DNA of 5,549 nt from Candidatus Hydrogenedens sp. GTDB lineage: Bacteria; Hydrogenedentota; Hydrogenedentia; Hydrogenedentales; Hydrogenedentaceae. Below, in pieces: positions 1-5,549 of the stretch. The stretch covers positions 1-5,549 of the forward strand of contig JBMFRC010000042.1 in NCBI GenBank assembly GCA_049968235.1, written 5' to 3'. Numbering within the stretch: position 1 is the stretch's first letter; the number at the start of each line of letters is the position of its first letter. Both the position numbers and the translations under genes were made by a program. The notes below the pieces were generated by a model. The model saw only the letters and a list, made by a program, of their open reading frames with translations. It was not told the origin of the DNA and searched no databases.

Positions 1-396
<396 letters not shown>

Positions 397-500: not shown

Positions 501-617
<117 letters not shown>

Positions 618-890: not shown

Positions 891-2396
891 ATGAATACAT
901 CAAATCAAGAATCAAAAAAGTTTTCGTCCTGTTTCTCAGGTTGTTCACGCAGGCAATTCATTCTGGCTTCGGCAGGTATGGTGGCAGTGGCTAATCTGCC
1001 GATTTATGGGAAATCTATTGTTGAGCAGGGACCCTTGGCTGAGTTACAGATTAAGAGTAAGGTTAGGGTAGGAAAAATGTATGTCGGTATTCCCAGCCCC
1101 GGTTGGCCTATGCATCTGGTTGACCTGAAAGCGGAAGTAAACCGATATGAACAGGAAATATCGAAACTCAAAGAACAACTTGCTGATATTGAATTTGTGG
1201 AAGGTGGGCTGGTTACAAATCAAGATGAACTTGCAAAAGCAAAAGAAAAGTTTGGGGATGTGACGGGGATATTGGTTCTGCATCTGACTTTAGGCACAGG
1301 CGGGCTGATTTCAGGGTTGTTTGACATGAACAAGCCTGTGATGATTTTTACCATGCCGTATTGTGGGCATGAATGGCATATTGTTCCATCGTGGCAGAGG
1401 GAAGGAAAAATTGTGGATATAGTTCCAAGCAGTCAATATGCAGATATTGCTGAAGCGGTGAAACCGTTCCGTGCTATTCAAAGACTAAAAGAGACACGAA
1501 TACTCCATGTAAACTATGGTGAAGCAGACCCGCAATATTGTGCTTCTATTAAGGAGAAATTTGGAACTGAAATCATTACAGTAACACTTCCGGAACTTGA
1601 AAAGGCTTACGAGGAAGCATCCGAAGAAGAGGTGCTTGCTGATACAGAAAGATGGATTAAAGAAGCGGAGAAAATTGTTGAGCCCGGTAATGAAGATATA
1701 AAAAAAGGGGCGAGAATGTATATTGCTATGAAGAATCTTATGAAGAATTACAAGGCACAAGCCATTACAATGAATTGTTTAGGTATGAAATTAATGGAAA
1801 GGAATATGGGCTATCCGTGTTTAGGCTTTGTTCGATTAAATAATTCCTTGCTTGCAGGTGTGTGTGAGGCAGACCTGAAATCTACAATGACACAACTACT
1901 ATTTACCTATCTCGTGGGACGCACAGGTTTTGTTACTGACCCGATGTTTGACCTTTCAAATAATACAATCATACATGCCCATTGTGTCGCAGCGACACAG
2001 ATGAAAGGTCCGAATACCGAGCCTTCCCCTTACATAGTGAGAACTCATTTAGAGGACAATAGAGGCGTTTCACTGCAAGTGAAGATGCCTGTCGGCGAAA
2101 AAGTAACTATGGCACGACTAATAGGTAGCGATATATTGCTGTATAGCACCGGTGATGCCATCGATAGTCCACTTGAAGAGCGTGGCTGTAGAAGTAAATT
2201 AACGGTAAAAGTGGATAATATAGATAATTTCCTATATAACTGGTCATGTGGACTACATCGTGTAATCTTTTATGGTGACCACACAAGGGATATAGAACGC
2301 TATTGCAGGTTAACAAGAATTAAAATCCTCCGCGAAGGGATTGATAATCTCCATCATGTCGAAGGACTTGAATGGAACCCCAATGTCCATGCATAG
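891..2396 (+). CDS. L-arabinose/L-fucose isomerase family (AraA/FucI superfamily) sugar isomerase with N-terminal twin-arginine (Tat) signal peptide
   Basis: 501-aa ORF with ATG at 891 and TAG at 2394-2396. The N-terminus 'SCFSGCSRRQFILASAGMVAVANLPIYG' is a canonical Tat motif (S-R-R-x-F-[IL]) followed by a hydrophobic h-region. The core 'GVCEADLKSTMTQLLFTYLVGRTGFVTDPMFD' resembles the AraA metal-site motif 'GEGDWKTAALLRIM...TSFMEDYTY', and 'TIIHAHCVAATQM' resembles the AraA His-containing strand. Antisense ORFs inside it are AT-rich junk. Confidence 0.8.
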   Translation: MNTSNQESKKFSSCFSGCSRRQFILASAGMVAVANLPIYGKSIVEQGPLAELQIKSKVRVGKMYVGIPSPGWPMHLVDLKAEVNRYEQEISKLKEQLADIEFVEGGLVTNQDELAKAKEKFGDVTGILVLHLTLGTGGLISGLFDMNKPVMIFTMPYCGHEWHIVPSWQREGKIVDIVPSSQYADIAEAVKPFRAIQRLKETRILHVNYGEADPQYCASIKEKFGTEIITVTLPELEKAYEEASEEEVLADTERWIKEAEKIVEPGNEDIKKGARMYIAMKNLMKNYKAQAITMNCLGMKLMERNMGYPCLGFVRLNNSLLAGVCEADLKSTMTQLLFTYLVGRTGFVTDPMFDLSNNTIIHAHCVAATQMKGPNTEPSPYIVRTHLEDNRGVSLQVKMPVGEKVTMARLIGSDILLYSTGDAIDSPLEERGCRSKLTVKVDNIDNFLYNWSCGLHRVIFYGDHTRDIERYCRLTRIKILREGIDNLHHVEGLEWNPNVHA

Positions 2397-2624
2397 ATTA
2401 TTGAAAAGAAACAAAGGATGAAATTATATTTTCCTGTTGTATTTTATTGCAAAAAAAAATTGAACAACAAAACCCTGCATAACAAAGTTAAATAATTTAA
2501 CAGCAATTCTTTATTTGCACATTCTTTAAATTTATGAAGTTATATACTGCCAAAATATATCACAATTTAATTGTTAACATAAATTTATTTTGAGAGTTCT
2601 TTTTGTTTTGTCGTCATTTTTGAA

Positions 2625-3398
2625 TCAATCGTTTTTTTTAATAGTCTCTGCCAATTCTATTTCATCAAATAAGGTTTTCCAGCCTATTACAGGTACGCCA
2701 TCTTTTATTTCTGGCGGAGAATGGTGCTTAAGTATTACGAGTATAGGGATGGACATTCTTCCTAATATTTCAGATTGAGCCTTAATTTTATTGATTTTAT
2801 TGGTTATAGTAAAACTACGTTTAGATACTTTGCAAGCTATTACTAAATAGCTTTGTTCAAAAACACAGGCTATATCTATTTCACTTTTAAATGCATGGCC
2901 TTGATATTCTTCATTTATGTTTCTCTGATTCTCTTCTGACCATTTTGTTTTTATCCCTAATCGAATTTGCTTACAACCTATTTTCTCAAATGCAAATGCG
3001 GTTAATTCTTCAAAAAAGTGTCCATCACTCCTCTTAGCCTCTAATATGTGGTCAATATCATTATCTATTTCTTCTGCAGTTAATATTTTATTCTTCAATA
3101 CTTTATCTTTTAAGTTTTTGAATTTGGTAATGAAATTTTGGTAGAGACTTTTTTTGTCATTATTCAATGTTTTCCCTATATTTTTGATATCATCTTTCAT
3201 TTGTAATACTATTACTAAAGGAGGTTCCTTTAATGGTATTTTTTCAGAACCATCTAATAAATCAATGGTATTAGTACTATTATTAATAGAATATATCTTT
3301 CCATGTTGTTTTATTCCCCAAAAACTTAGTACTCCAGCATGAGATTTTGGTCCGGGTGTTATATTTATGATTGCTTCTCCATTCCCAAACATCTTCAT
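2625..3398 (-). CDS. Hypothetical protein; C-terminal half resembles an Mrr-type PD-(D/E)xK restriction-endonuclease fold (possible nuclease effector)
   Basis: 257-aa ORF, 77 nt downstream of the CARF gene on the same strand. Segment 'FEELTAFAFEKIGCKQIRLG...QGHAFKSEIDIACVFEQSYLVIACKVSKRSFTITNK...ILGRMSIPILVIL' matches the Mrr_cat layout: a helix with FE..l....L...GY, a Gly + hhhD strand (EIDIA), then hh.xCK (IACK). Motif III has Ala where Q/E is usual. The N-terminal ~110 aa (K-rich linker) is of unknown function. Weak RBS. Confidence 0.6.
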   Translation of the reverse strand: MKMFGNGEAIINITPGPKSHAGVLSFWGIKQHGKIYSINNSTNTIDLLDGSEKIPLKEPPLVIVLQMKDDIKNIGKTLNNDKKSLYQNFITKFKNLKDKVLKNKILTAEEIDNDIDHILEAKRSDGHFFEELTAFAFEKIGCKQIRLGIKTKWSEENQRNINEEYQGHAFKSEIDIACVFEQSYLVIACKVSKRSFTITNKINKIKAQSEILGRMSIPILVILKHHSPPEIKDGVPVIGWKTLFDEIELAETIKKND

Positions 3399-3475
3399 AT
3401 TATATAAATTAAATCCTGTAATATCTGTTGGTAATGATTGTAAGCCTCTTACTTGATTCGGTAAATTAATTTTAC

Positions 3476-3976
3476 CTATTTAATTTTTTCGATAACTTTA
3501 TTCACCCGTGAATCATCATAAGTATAAATTATACAAAGATTTGAATAGTTGTGAGTATACATCACCTTCAAGGTGTTTATTAATTCAGGACTCATTACAA
3601 CATATAAAGTAGAACCTTCTTTAGGTTCTTTTATTATTTCTGGTGAATTTATTTTTTTTGATAAATCAACAGAAAATGTAGATTTATTATTTGTTTTCTC
3701 TAAATAATTTCCAAATTCATTGAGATTACTAAATATTTTAACATCTCCTATTGCCTCTGATTGAAATCTTTCCTTAGTCCTAGTATCTTTAGTCTTAGGA
3801 TATTTTTTAATGATAATAGTTTCATAACTATGAAGTTCTTTTAACTGTTTACGATCCTTTCCACAAAATGCGATAATTTTACGAACTTTGTCTAATTCGT
3901 ATGAATCTATACTTATTATAAGTTTTAAGAAATTATTTTTAGAGATAATAAAATCGAATACAATATTTTCAAGCAT
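3476..3976 (-). CDS. C-terminal fragment (166 aa from first ATG) of the frameshifted CARF-domain protein; C-terminal domain of unknown function
   Basis: ORF from ATG 3976 to the stop at 3476. The same frame stays open upstream to 4192 with protein-like sequence and no canonical start, so the true gene is longer. Contains 'DRKQLKELH' (R-x6-H), a weak HEPN-like hint only. Confidence 0.45.
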   Translation of the reverse strand: MLENIVFDFIISKNNFLKLIISIDSYELDKVRKIIAFCGKDRKQLKELHSYETIIIKKYPKTKDTRTKERFQSEAIGDVKIFSNLNEFGNYLEKTNNKSTFSVDLSKKINSPEIIKEPKEGSTLYVVMSPELINTLKVMYTHNYSNLCIIYTYDDSRVNKVIEKIK

Positions 3977-4295
3977 TATCGCCGTAGATGATTGTTTTCC
4001 TGCTTCCCGTGGTATTTTTAATGATTTAAAATTCCCTTCTCTTTGTTTACATTTATATTCAACTCCCTGGATAGCTAAAATATCTAAAGGTTCTAACTCA
4101 ATACAAGGATTTAATTCTTTATATTCACCATTATTTAAGTTAAGAGACCATATAGATTCCCTTTCTGAATATATGAAGTTTAAATGGGGGGATTAAATGT
4201 TTTTAAGTATTGAAAGACAAAACTGGCAACCTGATGGTTCATCCCTCCAGCCAGATTGAAATATATCTCCTCATCTTTATCAACAGGGATGTCTT

Positions 4296-4508
4296 TTATA
4301 TTAAAAATTGGAGCGACAATTTGTTTTGAATTTCTAATTTTGGATTCTGTTTTAACAACTGAGAAGAGATTTTATCTGTTTGTTCAGCAGTTATTTCTGT
4401 ATGTAAAAGTAAAAATTTGCATCGCGATTTTTCTAAATTTAATACAGATAGAGCAGAGTTTAGTGTTCCCATAACCTGTGTACCTACAAAAGAAATAAAT
4501 TGAGCCAT
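4296..4508 (-). CDS. N-terminal fragment (70 aa) of the frameshifted CARF-domain protein, as an ORF caller would report it
   Basis: ATG at 4508 preceded by 'aggagattaaaa'. Encodes CARF beta1-alpha1-beta2 ('FISFVGTQ...CKFLLLHTEITAEQ'). Terminates at TAA 4296-4298 only because of the upstream frameshift. Confidence 0.5.
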   Translation of the reverse strand: MAQFISFVGTQVMGTLNSALSVLNLEKSRCKFLLLHTEITAEQTDKISSQLLKQNPKLEIQNKLSLQFLI

Positions 4509-4658: not shown

Positions 4659-5549
4659 TTAATTGTGCGTGTGTTTGCGTTTCCGTGTTTGAACGAGGAG
4701 TAGTCCGGAAAGGATAGTTAGCATTACCCAATCGCCTGTGTTGGAGTTATCCGATGAACTATGGGTTCCACAAGAAACGATAAATCTGCGTTTCTTACCC
4801 TTGCTAACAATTAAATCCACAGGGGTATCCTTTGCAACTCGCGCACCTGCTTCTGGCGCCTGACTAATTACACTTCCTTTTGGAACAGTGTCACTATATT
4901 CTTGTTTAATCGTTCCTACAGTAAGTCCGGAAGCAATTATTTTTGTTCTTGCATCCTGTTCTGTCATCCCAACCACATTGGGTACTGAGATAGGGCATGG
5001 ACCTGTAGAAACTACGAGATTTACTGATGTTCTTTTATTAACTGTTTGTGCTGGTAATGGACTCTGACTAATAACATTTCCTTCAGGAACGGTATCACTA
5101 CATTGTCTTGTTATGCTTCCCACAACCAGTCCTATGGATGTTATTTGTTCGATTGCTGATGTCTCGGAACTACCAATTAGATATGGAACTGTAACCTTTT
5201 CGACTTCACCTTCCACGATACCTTCCGGAGTACCCTCTGGTGTCCCTTCGGGAGTTCCTTCCACGACGCCTTCCGGAGTACCGTCGGGCGTACCTTCCGG
5301 GGTCCCTTCCACGACGCCTTCCGGAGTTCCCTCTGGCGTTCCTTCGGGCGTTCCTTCAACCACACCTTCCGGTGTACCTTCTGGCGTGCCTTCTGGAGTA
5401 CCTTCGACTACACCTTCGGGGGTGCCTTCCGGCGTCCCTTCTGGCGTTCCTTCACCTTCTACAACTCCTTCTCCTTCTGGAGTGCCTTCGCCTTCAGGAC
5501 ATGGTCCTGTGGATACCCAAAGATTCACTAATGTTCCTACCTCTACAGT
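4659..5549 (-). CDS. PASTA-domain repeat protein (N-terminus outside the window; PknB-like Ser/Thr kinase or PBP-associated sensor not decidable), with a PEGT-rich repetitive linker and a C-terminal hydrophobic/basic tail
   Basis: The reading frame is open to the window edge. The listed GTG at 5526-5528 is not the real start: upstream codons continue '...TVEVGTL'. Two full PASTA units: 'VPYLIGSSETSAIEQITSIGLVVGSITRQCSDTVPEGNVISQSPLPAQTVNKRTSVNLVVSTGPCP' and 'VPNVVGMTEQDARTKIIASGLTVGTIKQEYSDTVPKGSVISQAPEAGARVAKDTPVDLIVSKG'. These match the PASTA consensus (vP.vvG.t..eA...l...Gl.v......s..v..G.Vi.Q.P.aG..v..g..V.L.vS.G). A third unit ends '...NLWVSTGPCP' at the window edge. The C-terminus is '...SSSDNSNTGDWVMLTILSGLLLVQTRKRKHTHN'. 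Confidence 0.85.
   Translation of the reverse strand, partial: TVEVGTLVNLWVSTGPCPEGEGTPEGEGVVEGEGTPEGTPEGTPEGVVEGTPEGTPEGTPEGVVEGTPEGTPEGTPEGVVEGTPEGTPDGTPEGVVEGTPEGTPEGTPEGIVEGEVEKVTVPYLIGSSETSAIEQITSIGLVVGSITRQCSDTVPEGNVISQSPLPAQTVNKRTSVNLVVSTGPCPISVPNVVGMTEQDARTKIIASGLTVGTIKQEYSDTVPKGSVISQAPEAGARVAKDTPVDLIVSKGKKRRFIVSCGTHSSSDNSNTGDWVMLTILSGLLLVQTRKRKHTHN
5190..5507 (-). repeat. Imperfect 48-nt tandem repeat (~5-6 copies) inside the PASTA gene, encoding (TPEG)3-VVEG linker units
   Basis: Protein 'EGTPEGTPEGTPEGVVEG' is reiterated. On the + strand the recurring unit is 'ccttccggagtaccctctggtgtcccttcgggagttccttccacgacg' with synonymous third-position variation between copies. The RK-rich ORF 5177..5365 is an alternative-frame artefact of this repeat. 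Confidence 0.8.

What the first reader, a model, noticed from the sequence alone, without database searches (positions are those of the whole stretch)
2625..3398. Mrr-like nuclease fold with Ala in place of the catalytic Q/E of motif III
The C-terminal domain follows the Mrr_cat order: a helix carrying 'FEEL', the strand 'SEIDIAC', then 'LVIACK'. Where Mrr-type enzymes have (Q/E)-x-K the sequence has A-C-K. Either the catalytic acid comes from elsewhere (e.g. 'FEQS' six residues earlier, as in permuted PD-(D/E)xK variants) or the domain is a non-catalytic DNA-binding or sensor module. The N-terminal 110 aa, including a very K-rich low-complexity linker, have no recognisable family.
Basis: inference. 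Interest (0 to 1): 0.5.

Follow-up and report, generated by a model that had tools for sequence, protein, structure and literature searches.

The report
Broken Can1-like CRISPR nuclease gene fragment
The 257-residue reading frame is the tail end of a roughly 640-residue, signal-activated CRISPR helper nuclease gene that four small insertions or deletions have broken; its odd alanine sits where healthy relatives carry serine or glutamate, so this copy is most likely a dead remnant.

Summary
The ORF is not a complete gene. It is the last fragment of a gene spanning 2585..4508(-) that is broken by three 1-nt deletions and one 1-nt insertion at short base runs.

Repairing these gives a 628-aa protein. 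It aligns end to end with an intact syntenic orthologue (P0151, 638 aa, 63% identity). It folds confidently (pLDDT 89, pTM 0.90), and its best PDB match is Can1 (6SCE, E=3e-20, TM 0.6). The domain order is CARF, nuclease-like domain, CARF, PD-(D/E)xK nuclease.

The ORF's "unrecognisable" N-terminus is the second half of CARF2 plus a helical linker.

At the Ala position, 116 full-length relatives have Ser (96) or Glu (18). Ser-type members carry a conserved Glu on the next helix, usually 11-15 residues after the Lys. This resembles the permuted K-X12-13-(E/D) site of CCGG-family restriction enzymes. This copy has Ala and Lys at the two positions, so neither acid is present.

The indels recur in two assemblies that differ by SNPs. 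I conclude this is a recently inactivated pseudogene. Distant relatives sit inside type III CRISPR operons, outside Thermus.

The parts
2585..4508 (-). Whole disrupted Can1-like gene. The ancestral reading frame runs from ATG at 4508 to the ancestral stop TAA at 2585-2587. It is now read in four frame segments plus a shifted tail.
   Evidence: Three-frame translation. Repair of three sites gives a 628-aa protein that aligns end to end with P0151, P0002 and P0004. The AF2 model has pLDDT 89.4 and pTM 0.90. The best PDB match is Can1 6SCE_A at E=3e-20.
2625..3398 (-). The reported 257-aa ORF. It comprises the second half of CARF2 (aa 1-75), a helical linker (aa 80-139) and the PD-(D/E)xK nuclease domain (aa 126-257).
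4106..4508 (-). CARF domain 1 (repaired residues 1-135; 'SFVGTQ...', 'FNLAGGMNHQ'). It is split over three frames.
   Evidence: hhalign of the N-half against the C-half aligns CARF1 with CARF2 at Prob 94%, E=9e-8. PADLOC Csx1/CARF model PDLC01619 matches repaired residues 41-157.
4324..4327 (-). Frameshift 1. The run is A4 where the intact orthologue has A5 (a 1-nt deletion). It creates the stop that ends the 70-aa ORF 4296..4508.
   Evidence: The repaired 'EIQKQ' matches P0151 'EIQKQ'.
4186..4191 (-). Frameshift 2. A 1-nt deletion at or next to a C6 run. The exact base is ambiguous within about 4186-4200.
   Evidence: The repaired 'PHLNFIYSER' matches P0151 'PHLHFIYSER'.
3641..4093 (-). Nuclease-like domain (repaired residues about 140-290). 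It has a PD-(D/E)xK-like fold without the catalytic triad and keeps conserved Arg210 and Arg220.
   Evidence: Secondary structure, conservation, whole-chain match to Can1. The Can1 nuclease-like domain is described in PMC6981274.
3177..3613 (-). CARF domain 2 (repaired residues about 300-445; 'LYVVMSPE...', 'YTYDD', 'NITPGPK'). It is cut in two by frameshift 3.
3476..3481 (-). Frameshift 3. A 1-nt deletion: the window reads AAATAGGT where the orthologue reads AAAAAAGGG. It creates the TAG stop of the 166-aa ORF 3476..3976.
   Evidence: The repaired 'KIKIGKINLP' matches P0151 'KIKKGKINLP'.
3009..3011 (-). Codon of E130 (repaired E501), the conserved helix Glu of 'FFEEL'.
   Evidence: E in 114 of 116 family members.
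2874..2882 (-). Codons E173-I174-D175 (repaired E544-I-D546). These are the ExD metal-binding strand, equivalent to Can1 E541 and D543.
   Evidence: D invariant in 116 of 116. Can1 residues from PMC6981274.
2829..2837 (-). Codons A188-C189-K190 (repaired A559-C-K561). Ala sits at the ExK/SxK position.
   Evidence: The family has S in 96, E in 18 and T in 1 of 116. K is present in 115 of 116. The position aligns with E of Can2 'ECK'. The same GCT codon is present in the second MAG contig L020.
2787..2789 (-). Codon K204 (repaired K575). This is the helix position that carries the relocated catalytic Glu in Ser-type family members.
   Evidence: It lies in helix 198-212 of the model, directly after the A-C-K strand.
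2632..2639 (-). Frameshift 4. An A8 run containing a 1-nt insertion relative to the orthologue. It produces the premature 'ND*' ending of the ORF.
   Evidence: The identical A8 run is present in the independent contig L020.

Best explanation
The ORF is the 3'-terminal fragment of a pseudogenised orthologue of a Can1-like type III CRISPR ancillary nuclease.

The ancestral gene (window 2585..4508, minus strand, about 640 aa) encoded one polypeptide with four domains: CARF1, a nuclease-like domain, CARF2 and a PD-(D/E)xK nuclease.

By analogy with Can1 (inferred, not shown here), the two CARF domains together bind a cyclic oligoadenylate made by Cas10. This would close the nuclease-like and nuclease domains around DNA and switch on metal-dependent cleavage.

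In this protein family the second catalytic acid is usually not on the ExK strand. Most members have S-C-K and a conserved Glu on the next helix, a permuted site of the Cfr10I/NgoMIV type. A minority keep the canonical E-C-K.

The window's copy has lost the gene's integrity through three -1 indels and one +1 indel. It has also lost both alternative acid positions (Ser to Ala188, Glu to Lys204). It most likely makes no functional protein. The 257-aa ORF is simply the longest frame left open.

At other conserved positions the copy is no more diverged than its intact relatives, so the inactivation is recent.
For: 1. Fragment status. An exhaustive phmmer search found 156 hits. Most are 630-700 aa, and the ORF aligns with their last 260 or so residues.

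2. Repair. Correcting three single-base sites gives 628 aa that align end to end with P0151 (63%), P0002 (51%) and P0004 (44%), with exact matches across each junction.

3. Orthology. P0151 is preceded by the same giant TPEG-repeat/PASTA gene, 71% identical to the window's.

4. Fold. The repaired protein gives pLDDT 89.4 and pTM 0.90. The Foldseek top hit is Can1 6SCE_A at E=3e-20 with TM 0.59/0.60 over the whole chain, followed by Can2, VC1899, Cdn1 and Card1. The family profile hits Can2 7BDV at E=3.9e-11. PADLOC CARF_PDDEXK scores 1.4e-8. CARF1 and CARF2 are homologous to each other.

5. Active site. At the Ala position the family has S in 96 and E in 18 of 116. The helix Glu is present in 86 of 102 Ser-type members and 1 of 16 Glu-type members (Fisher p about 1e-9, not corrected for phylogeny). 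The Lys-to-Glu spacing has its mode at 12 residues. The window has Ala plus Lys.

6. The indels are real. The window and NCBI contig JBMFPN010000267.1 differ by 5 SNPs and 0 gaps over 4642 bp. A second MAG contig, JBMFLO010000381.1, differs by 9 SNPs and 0 gaps and carries the same A8 run, Ala and Lys. The contigs break at the rRNA operon and at the TPEG repeats. I take this as typical of short-read assemblies, where 1-nt errors in A3 to A5 runs are rare (inference).

7. CRISPR link of the family. In L009 the homologue sits between Cas6 and Cas10, followed by Cas7/Csm3-like genes. In L011 it sits next to Cas6 and an RtcR-like CARF regulator.

8. Experimental support from the literature. Alanine double mutants that include the equivalent acid are inactive: TsuCan2 E302A/K304A, and SthCan2 E276A/D278A (PMC7969007). 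The Can1 active site is E541, D543, E560 and K562 (PMC6981274). Cfr10I E204Q is inactive (PMC5389614).
Against: No raw reads were available, so a systematic sequencing or assembly error at the four base runs cannot be formally excluded. The two MAGs have neighbouring accessions and probably share a study and a sequencing platform.

Outside the two catalytic positions, the copy is not more diverged at conserved columns than its intact relatives. It has 3 deviations against a median of 2. It has 22 clade-specific substitutions (27 deviations counting five gap positions caused by the C-terminal frameshift) against 17 for P0151. There is therefore no independent signature of long relaxed selection.

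No cas genes or CRISPR array are visible in the 5.5-kb window or within 10 kb of the closest intact orthologues. The CRISPR link rests on distant family members.

Sequence similarity to Thermus Can1 itself was not detected. The Can1 relationship is structural and architectural only.

Confidence: 0.8

Rival explanations
1. The four indels are sequencing or assembly artefacts. In the cell the gene is intact and encodes a full-length Can1-like protein with A-C-K and Lys at the helix position. That protein would be a naturally nuclease-dead cyclic-oligoadenylate binder, acting as a sponge, a regulator or a DNA-binding sensor.
For: All four disruptions lie at mononucleotide runs. The amino-acid sequence is otherwise as well conserved as in intact relatives, including the CARF signature motifs, E130, D175, K190 and R214. 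The repaired protein folds with high confidence.
Against: The same run lengths occur in records that differ by SNPs elsewhere, with 0 gaps over 4642 and 2967 bp. Three of the four runs are only 3-6 nt long, which is not a typical error site. Three deletions and one insertion within 1.9 kb contrast with an intact neighbouring 501-aa gene in all three records. A second, more decayed remnant of the same clade exists elsewhere (L013).
Confidence: 0.12
2. The 257-aa ORF is a free-standing Mrr-like PD-(D/E)xK protein. It either borrows its acid from elsewhere in the same chain (for example E181 of 'FEQS') or acts as a non-catalytic DNA-binding module, with a novel N-terminal domain.
For: The ORF has an ATG and is open for 257 codons. 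The fold is PD-(D/E)xK.
Against: There is no Pfam Mrr_cat hit. The N-terminal 75 aa are half of a CARF domain whose other half lies upstream of a stop codon. Conserved coding sequence continues upstream of the ATG. All homologues longer than fragments carry the additional 370 or so N-terminal residues. E181 is not conserved. The C-terminus is itself frameshifted.
Confidence: 0.03
3. The gene is expressed through programmed or stochastic frameshifting, or through phase variation at the base runs. Full-length protein would then be made in a subpopulation, as happens with contingency loci of defence genes.
For: The C6 and A8 runs are of the kind that can slip. Defence genes are sometimes phase-variable (general knowledge, not tested here).
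Against: Four independent corrections, three +1 and one -1, would have to coincide. Two of the sites are runs of only A3 and A4. No run-length variation was seen between the three records. The catalytic positions are also lost.
Confidence: 0.02

Closest known systems
Can1 (TTHB144, Thermus thermophilus; PDB 6SCE)
   Same: It shares the single-chain order CARF, nuclease-like domain, CARF, PD-(D/E)xK nuclease, and a similar length (636 aa against about 628-640 aa). It is the best whole-chain structural match (E=3e-20, TM 0.6). The ExD strand and the Lys are conserved. The nuclease-like domain lacks the catalytic residues but keeps conserved arginines. Family members sit in type III CRISPR loci.
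   Different: No sequence similarity to 6SCE was detectable with the family profile. Can1 has the canonical E560-x-K562 (PMC6981274), whereas this family mostly has S-C-K with the acid on the next helix. The family occurs in Planctomycetota and Desulfobacterota-type MAGs and anaerobic-digester metagenomes, while Can1 was described as limited to Thermus (PMC6981274, PMC9704534). The window's copy is frameshifted and lacks both acids.
Can2 / Card1 / VC1899 (DUF1887; PDB 7BDV, 8BAO, 6WXW, 1XMX) and Cdn1 (9U49, 8Z4I)
   Same: These are the closest relatives by sequence. The profile scores E=3.9e-11 to 7BDV across CARF plus nuclease. PADLOC CARF_PDDEXK matches. They are the top structural hits for the ORF model.
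   Different: Can2 and Card1 are homodimers of a single CARF-nuclease unit with a canonical ExK. Here two such units are fused, the first nuclease is degenerate, and the ExK Glu is replaced.
CCGG-family type II restriction endonucleases (Cfr10I, NgoMIV, Bse634I)
   Same: They have a permuted active site in which the ExK Glu is absent and an acid 12-13 residues after the Lys, on the following helix, completes the metal site (PMC5389614). From my own recollection, not from a paper read here, the strand position is Ser in Cfr10I (S188-V-K190). The family here shows S-x-K, then mostly 11-15 residues (mode 12), then Glu. The Can1 authors noted NgoMIV and AgeI as the nearest DNA-bound structural neighbours of the Can1 nuclease domain.
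   Different: There is no sequence-specific recognition module, no R-(D/E)R motif was examined, and the proteins are regulated by CARF domains. The resemblance concerns active-site geometry only, and here it is inferred from sequence rather than measured.
Mrr_cat (PF04471), NERD, DUF4263
   Same: They share the general PD-(D/E)xK fold with the order helix-Glu, then D, then (E/Q)xK.
   Different: The ORF gives no Pfam match. NERD matched 1 of 41 family members at E=0.006 only. The best structural matches are all CARF-coupled nucleases.

Membership tests
Can1 (fused CARF-NLD-CARF-nuclease effectors) | One polypeptide with the order CARF, nuclease-like domain, CARF, PD-(D/E)xK nuclease | tested here: met
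AF2 gives pTM 0.90. The whole-chain Foldseek hit to 6SCE_A is E=3e-20 with TM 0.59/0.60. CARF1 and CARF2 are homologous. It is not met by the DNA as it stands, which encodes only fragments.
Can1 (fused CARF-NLD-CARF-nuclease effectors) | Detectable sequence homology to TTHB144 | tested here: not met
   A profile of 41 family members searched against all PDB sequences at E<=10 lists Can2, VC1899 and Cdn1 but not 6SCE.
Can1 (fused CARF-NLD-CARF-nuclease effectors) | Canonical nuclease site E-x-D ... E-x-K (Can1 E541, D543, E560, K562) | tested here: not met
   E173, D175 and K190 are present. The ExK Glu is Ala188. The family's alternative helix Glu is Lys204.
Can1 (fused CARF-NLD-CARF-nuclease effectors) | Activation by cyclic tetra-adenylate bound between the two CARF domains | not testable with these tools
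   Only motif retention can be shown: 'FNLAGGMNHQ' in CARF1, and 'NITPGPK' with the invariant Lys in CARF2.
Can1 (fused CARF-NLD-CARF-nuclease effectors) | Genomic association with a type III CRISPR-Cas locus | tested here: inconclusive
   Met for the distant members L009 (Cas6, homologue, Cas10, Cas7/Csm3) and L011 (Cas6, RtcR-like). Not seen in the window or within 10 kb of the closest orthologues. The rest of the source genome was not available.
Can2/Card1 (DUF1887, CARF4-PDDEXK) | Sequence match to the CARF plus Card1-type endonuclease profile | tested here: met
   PADLOC PDLC01968 CARF_PDDEXK scores E=1.4e-8 on ORF residues 115-228. The family profile against 7BDV scores E=3.9e-11 over CARF plus nuclease. 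The Pfam Card1_endonuc and CARF_Card1 models hit only 2 and 1 of 41 members, weakly.
Can2/Card1 (DUF1887, CARF4-PDDEXK) | Single CARF-nuclease unit acting as a homodimer | tested here: not met
   Homologues are 630-700 aa with two tandem units.
Mrr_cat (PF04471) | Match to the Pfam Mrr_cat profile | tested here: not met
   The Pfam scan of the ORF at E<=1 gives only a spurious MPM1 hit below the cut-off.
CCGG-family permuted PD...K-X12-13-(E/D) nucleases | Acid located 12-13 residues after the Lys, on the following helix, in place of the ExK acid | tested here: not met
   The family meets it at sequence level (86 of 102 Ser-type members, spacing mode 12). The window's copy has Lys at that position. 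Spatial equivalence was not measured.

The most novel reading that the evidence does not exclude
The gene is in fact intact in vivo, or was until very recently. In that case this lineage carries a naturally nuclease-dead Can1-like protein, with Ala and Lys at the two alternative acid positions. It would still bind cyclic oligoadenylate and act as a second-messenger sponge or regulator encoded away from any CRISPR locus.

Independently of that, the evidence supports a family-level reading. A large Can1-architecture effector family, almost invisible to Pfam, exists outside Thermus. In it the catalytic acid has moved between the ExK strand and the following helix.
Probability: 0.1. Interest if true: 0.6.

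Novelty: new variant of a known kind. Interest (0 to 1): 0.35.

Why it matters
For this locus the result is mainly a correction. An apparently novel [quoted passage not shown] is a decaying fragment of a known type of CRISPR ancillary nuclease, and it should be annotated as a pseudogene.

The wider value lies in the family it exposed. More than 110 sequence clusters at 50% identity have the Can1 architecture. They come from Planctomycetota, Desulfobacterota-type and digester MAGs, and some are embedded in type III operons. The papers read here still describe Can1 as confined to Thermus (PMC6981274, PMC9704534). Pfam barely detects the family.

The family also shows a clean natural either/or between E-C-K and S-C-K...E active sites. 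This is directly testable by swapping residues in an intact member such as P0151. It would also help genome annotation and censuses of type III effectors.

Tried and rejected
- Pfam and NCBIfam scans of the ORF and its neighbours found nothing for the ORF.
- phmmer of the ORF and of the repaired protein against PDB sequences found nothing meaningful. The caspase-3 hits at E of about 0.6 are noise.
- The word-indexed protein search with the ORF found nothing at E<=0.01. Only the exhaustive search found the family.
- The word-indexed search with the family alignment returned only four close relatives.
- The metagenome scan returned only P0151-like and P0004 loci. It gave no further near-identical copies that could confirm the first three frameshifts independently.
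- The genome scan returned only 8 loci.
- The 'FEQS' acid hypothesis is rejected because E181 is not conserved.
- A fixed K+14 spacing for the helix Glu failed on unaligned sequences. The loop length varies, so I re-anchored on the downstream G-R-F motif.
- I tested for excess divergence at conserved columns as a sign of long-term decay and found none.
- The CARF-superfamily classification paper (PMC7498327) is not held. I could not check whether it already lists this tandem architecture outside Thermus.
- Programmed frameshifting is rejected as implausible for four sites that need corrections in opposite directions.
Full report
**1. The observation**

ORF 2625..3398 on the minus strand (257 aa) exists.
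- HFFEEL, with E130
- SEIDIAC, with E173 and D175
- LVIACK, with A188, C189 and K190

Pfam, NCBIfam and a plain sequence search of the PDB give nothing for it. PADLOC's CARF_PDDEXK model matches residues 115-228 at E=1.4e-8. The nuclease-fold reading is therefore right, but the family is the CARF-coupled Can2/Card1 type and not Mrr.

**2. The ORF is a fragment**

A three-frame translation of the minus strand between 4700 and 2400 shows four consecutive open segments in frames 0, 2, 1 and 0.
- The first begins 'MAQFISFVGTQ...'.
- The second contains '...YFNLAGGMNHQV...'.
- The third ends '...STLYVVMSPE...IIYTYDD...KIK*'.
- The fourth is the reported ORF, whose frame is already open 27 codons upstream of its ATG.

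The word-indexed protein search found no homologue. The exhaustive search of 1.84 billion representatives found 156. Most are 630-700 aa, and the ORF aligns with their last 260 or so residues.

Adding one base at each of three short runs gives a 628-aa protein. The runs are A4 at 4324-4327, C6 at 4186-4191 and A3 at 3479-3481. The repaired protein aligns end to end with P0151 (638 aa, 63% identity), P0002 (51%) and P0004 (44%). Residues match exactly across every junction: EIQKQ, PHL.FIYSER and KIK.GKINLP.

The homologues also continue past the ORF's 'ND*' with 'TIDSKMTTKQ'. The window still encodes this in another frame, down to a TAA at 2585-2587. A fourth shift therefore lies in the A8 run at 2632-2639.

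Compared base by base with the intact orthologue's DNA, the window has three 1-nt deletions and one 1-nt insertion.

**3. Orthology and reality of the indels**

P0151 occurs on at least ten contigs from several samples. It always lies downstream of a 1,800-1,900-aa gene. The C-terminal 300 residues of that gene (TPEG repeats, two PASTA domains and a hydrophobic C-terminal stretch) are 71% identical to the window's upstream gene. The two loci are therefore syntenic orthologues, one intact and one broken.

The exact 257-aa product is on NCBI contig JBMFPN010000267.1 (GCA_049969095.1). That contig differs from the window by five SNPs and no gaps over 4,642 bp, and none of the SNPs lies in the gene.

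A second MAG contig, JBMFLO010000381.1 (GCA_049971155.1), starts inside the gene. It differs by nine SNPs and no gaps over 2,967 bp. It has the same A8 run, the same GCT (Ala) codon and the same Lys204 codon.

The contigs end in the rRNA operon and in the TPEG repeats, which suggests short-read assemblies (my inference). The neighbouring 501-aa gene is intact in all three records.

I therefore regard the indels as real mutations, at roughly 80-85%. Only read-level data would settle this.

**4. What the gene was**

The AF2 model of the ORF has pLDDT 94.3. Its PDB matches are VC1899, Can2 (7BDV, 8BAO, 8Q4x), Cdn1 and Can1.

The AF2 model of the repaired 628-aa protein has pLDDT 89.4 and pTM 0.90. 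Its best PDB match, by nine orders of magnitude, is Can1 6SCE_A. The match has E=3e-20 and TM 0.59/0.60 over the whole chain.

The family profile hits Can2 7BDV at E=3.9e-11 across CARF plus nuclease. It does not hit 6SCE by sequence. [quoted passage not shown]

The domain order therefore matches Can1: CARF1, nuclease-like domain, CARF2, nuclease (PMC6981274). On this reading:
- The ORF's first 75 residues are the second half of CARF2, with the invariant 'NITPG.K' motif.
- Residues 80-139 are long helices. These may correspond to Can1's extra helix-loop-helix (residues 441-498); that equivalence is my inference and was not checked by superposition.

Distant members of the family lie in type III CRISPR operons. 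In L009 (a Planctomycetota MAG) the order is Cas6, homologue, Cas10, then Cas7/Csm3-like genes. In L011 (Desulfobacteraceae) the homologue sits beside Cas6 and an RtcR-like CARF regulator.

No cas genes are visible in the window or within 10 kb of the closest orthologues.

**5. The alanine**

Among 116 full-length relatives, the position of Ala188 is Ser in 96, Glu in 18 and Thr in 1. E130 (114 of 116), D175 (116 of 116) and K190 (115 of 116) are nearly invariant. The profile alignment places this position opposite the Glu of Can2's 'ECK'.

A second column, on the helix that follows the strand, is Glu in most Ser-type members and almost never in Glu-type members. Anchoring on the downstream G-R-F motif gives these counts:

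| Strand position | Helix Glu present | Helix Glu absent |
|---|---|---|
| Ser | 86 | 16 |
| Glu | 1 | 15 |

Fisher's test gives p of about 1e-9, without phylogenetic correction. Several of the 16 Ser-type exceptions have the Glu one position off. The Lys-to-Glu spacing is mostly 11-15 residues, with the mode at 12.

This is the pattern described for CCGG-family restriction enzymes as a permuted 'PD-K-X12-13-(E/D)' motif. Cfr10I E204Q is inactive (PMC5389614). The Can1 authors had noted NgoMIV and AgeI as the nearest DNA-bound structural neighbours of Can1's nuclease domain.

The window's copy has Ala at the strand position and Lys204 at the helix position. The near-identical L020 copy has the same. 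These are the only sequences in the set with neither Ser nor Glu on the strand and a Lys on the helix.

Double mutants that include the equivalent acid inactivate Can2 enzymes: TsuCan2 E302A/K304A, and SthCan2 E276A/D278A (PMC7969007).

**6. Interpretation**

The simplest account is a recently inactivated orphan effector gene. The catalytic centre lost both possible positions for the second acid, and four indels broke the frame.

The decay is recent. At columns conserved in at least 85% of the family, the window deviates at 3 positions against a family median of 2. At positions invariant in its three closest full-length relatives, it deviates at 27 of 216 (22 substitutions plus five gap positions from the C-terminal frameshift) against 17 of 206 for P0151.

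Some further observations fit this account:
- A remnant of about 170 aa from another copy of this clade exists in an unrelated MAG (L013).
- The clade's genes are markedly AT-rich relative to their flanks, 28-30% against 36-45% GC. This is compatible with horizontal acquisition.

Whether the active-site substitutions came before the frameshifts cannot be decided from these data. One possible order is that a toxic nuclease was first disarmed after its cyclase was lost.

**7. Rivals**

- Assembly error with an intact, nuclease-dead protein: about 0.12.
- A free-standing Mrr-like 257-aa protein: about 0.03.
- Programmed or phase-variable frameshifting: about 0.02.

The arguments for and against each are in the corresponding fields.

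**8. Novelty and score**

For the window, the finding is ordinary. It is a pseudogene fragment of a known kind of effector.

The family behind it deserves a note. It has the Can1 architecture and occurs outside Thermus, although both the primary paper and a 2022 review describe Can1 as limited to that genus. Pfam barely covers it. It shows a natural alternation between canonical and permuted active sites.

I could not consult the CARF-superfamily census, so prior description of the architecture cannot be excluded. My interest score is 0.35, and I class it as a new variant of a known kind.

Noticed in passing
window 1-396 and 501-617 (+): The window starts with the 3' end of a bacterial 23S rRNA (model positions 2534-2925, 422 bits) followed by a complete 5S rRNA (114 bits). 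This explains the GC-rich left end and probably why the assemblies break here.
   Followed up: partly
window 891-2396 (+): An intact 501-aa gene. It has a weak TAT-signal match and weak similarity to the L-arabinose isomerase central domain and to sulfoquinovose isomerase, all far below the curated cut-offs. It is conserved without indels in all three records.
   Followed up: no
window 4659-5549 (-), repeats at 5208-5454: The 3' end of a very large gene that runs off the window. It has TPEG/VVEG peptide repeats (tandem DNA repeats of 48 and 96 nt), two PASTA domains and a hydrophobic C-terminal stretch. It is 71% identical to the end of a 1,909-aa protein that precedes the intact orthologue in L002. 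The two SNP clusters between records fall in these repeats.
   Followed up: partly
family alignment (repaired residues 559 and 575); proteins P0002-P0150: There is an either/or pattern between E-C-K and S-C-K...Glu-on-next-helix across about 118 family members. This suggests that the second catalytic acid has migrated, as in Cfr10I and NgoMIV. The test is not corrected for phylogeny and has not been checked in 3D.
   Followed up: partly
L009:1099-13443; L011:8431-13570: In a Planctomycetota MAG the Can1-like gene sits between Cas6 and Cas10, followed by several Cas7/Csm3-like genes that match type III-D-like Cas7 models. In a Desulfobacteraceae MAG it is flanked by Cas6 and an RtcR/PspF-like CARF-AAA-HTH regulator.
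   Followed up: partly
L013:10001-10504: Only residues 58-221 of the protein (42% identity) are recognisable in this uncultured-bacterium MAG. This is apparently a short remnant of another copy and hints at recurrent loss of this gene.
   Followed up: no
window 2585-4508 versus flanks; L002, L007, L019: The gene and its three closest intact relatives are all much more AT-rich than their surroundings (28-30% against 36-45% GC). Distant CRISPR-embedded members are not.
   Followed up: no
window 2857-2949 versus L020:1-115: All five SNPs between the window and the second MAG inside the gene change the amino acid (K to N, E to D, I to L, S to N, E to G). They lie within about 110 nt of that contig's end, so they may be assembly noise rather than a sign of relaxed selection.
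   Followed up: no
family alignment A1: Pfam recognises almost none of this family. The hits are Cas_APE2256 in 6 of 41 members, Card1_endonuc in 2 of 41 and CARF_Card1 in 1 of 41, all weak. The precomputed Pfam field is empty for the close relatives.
   Followed up: yes
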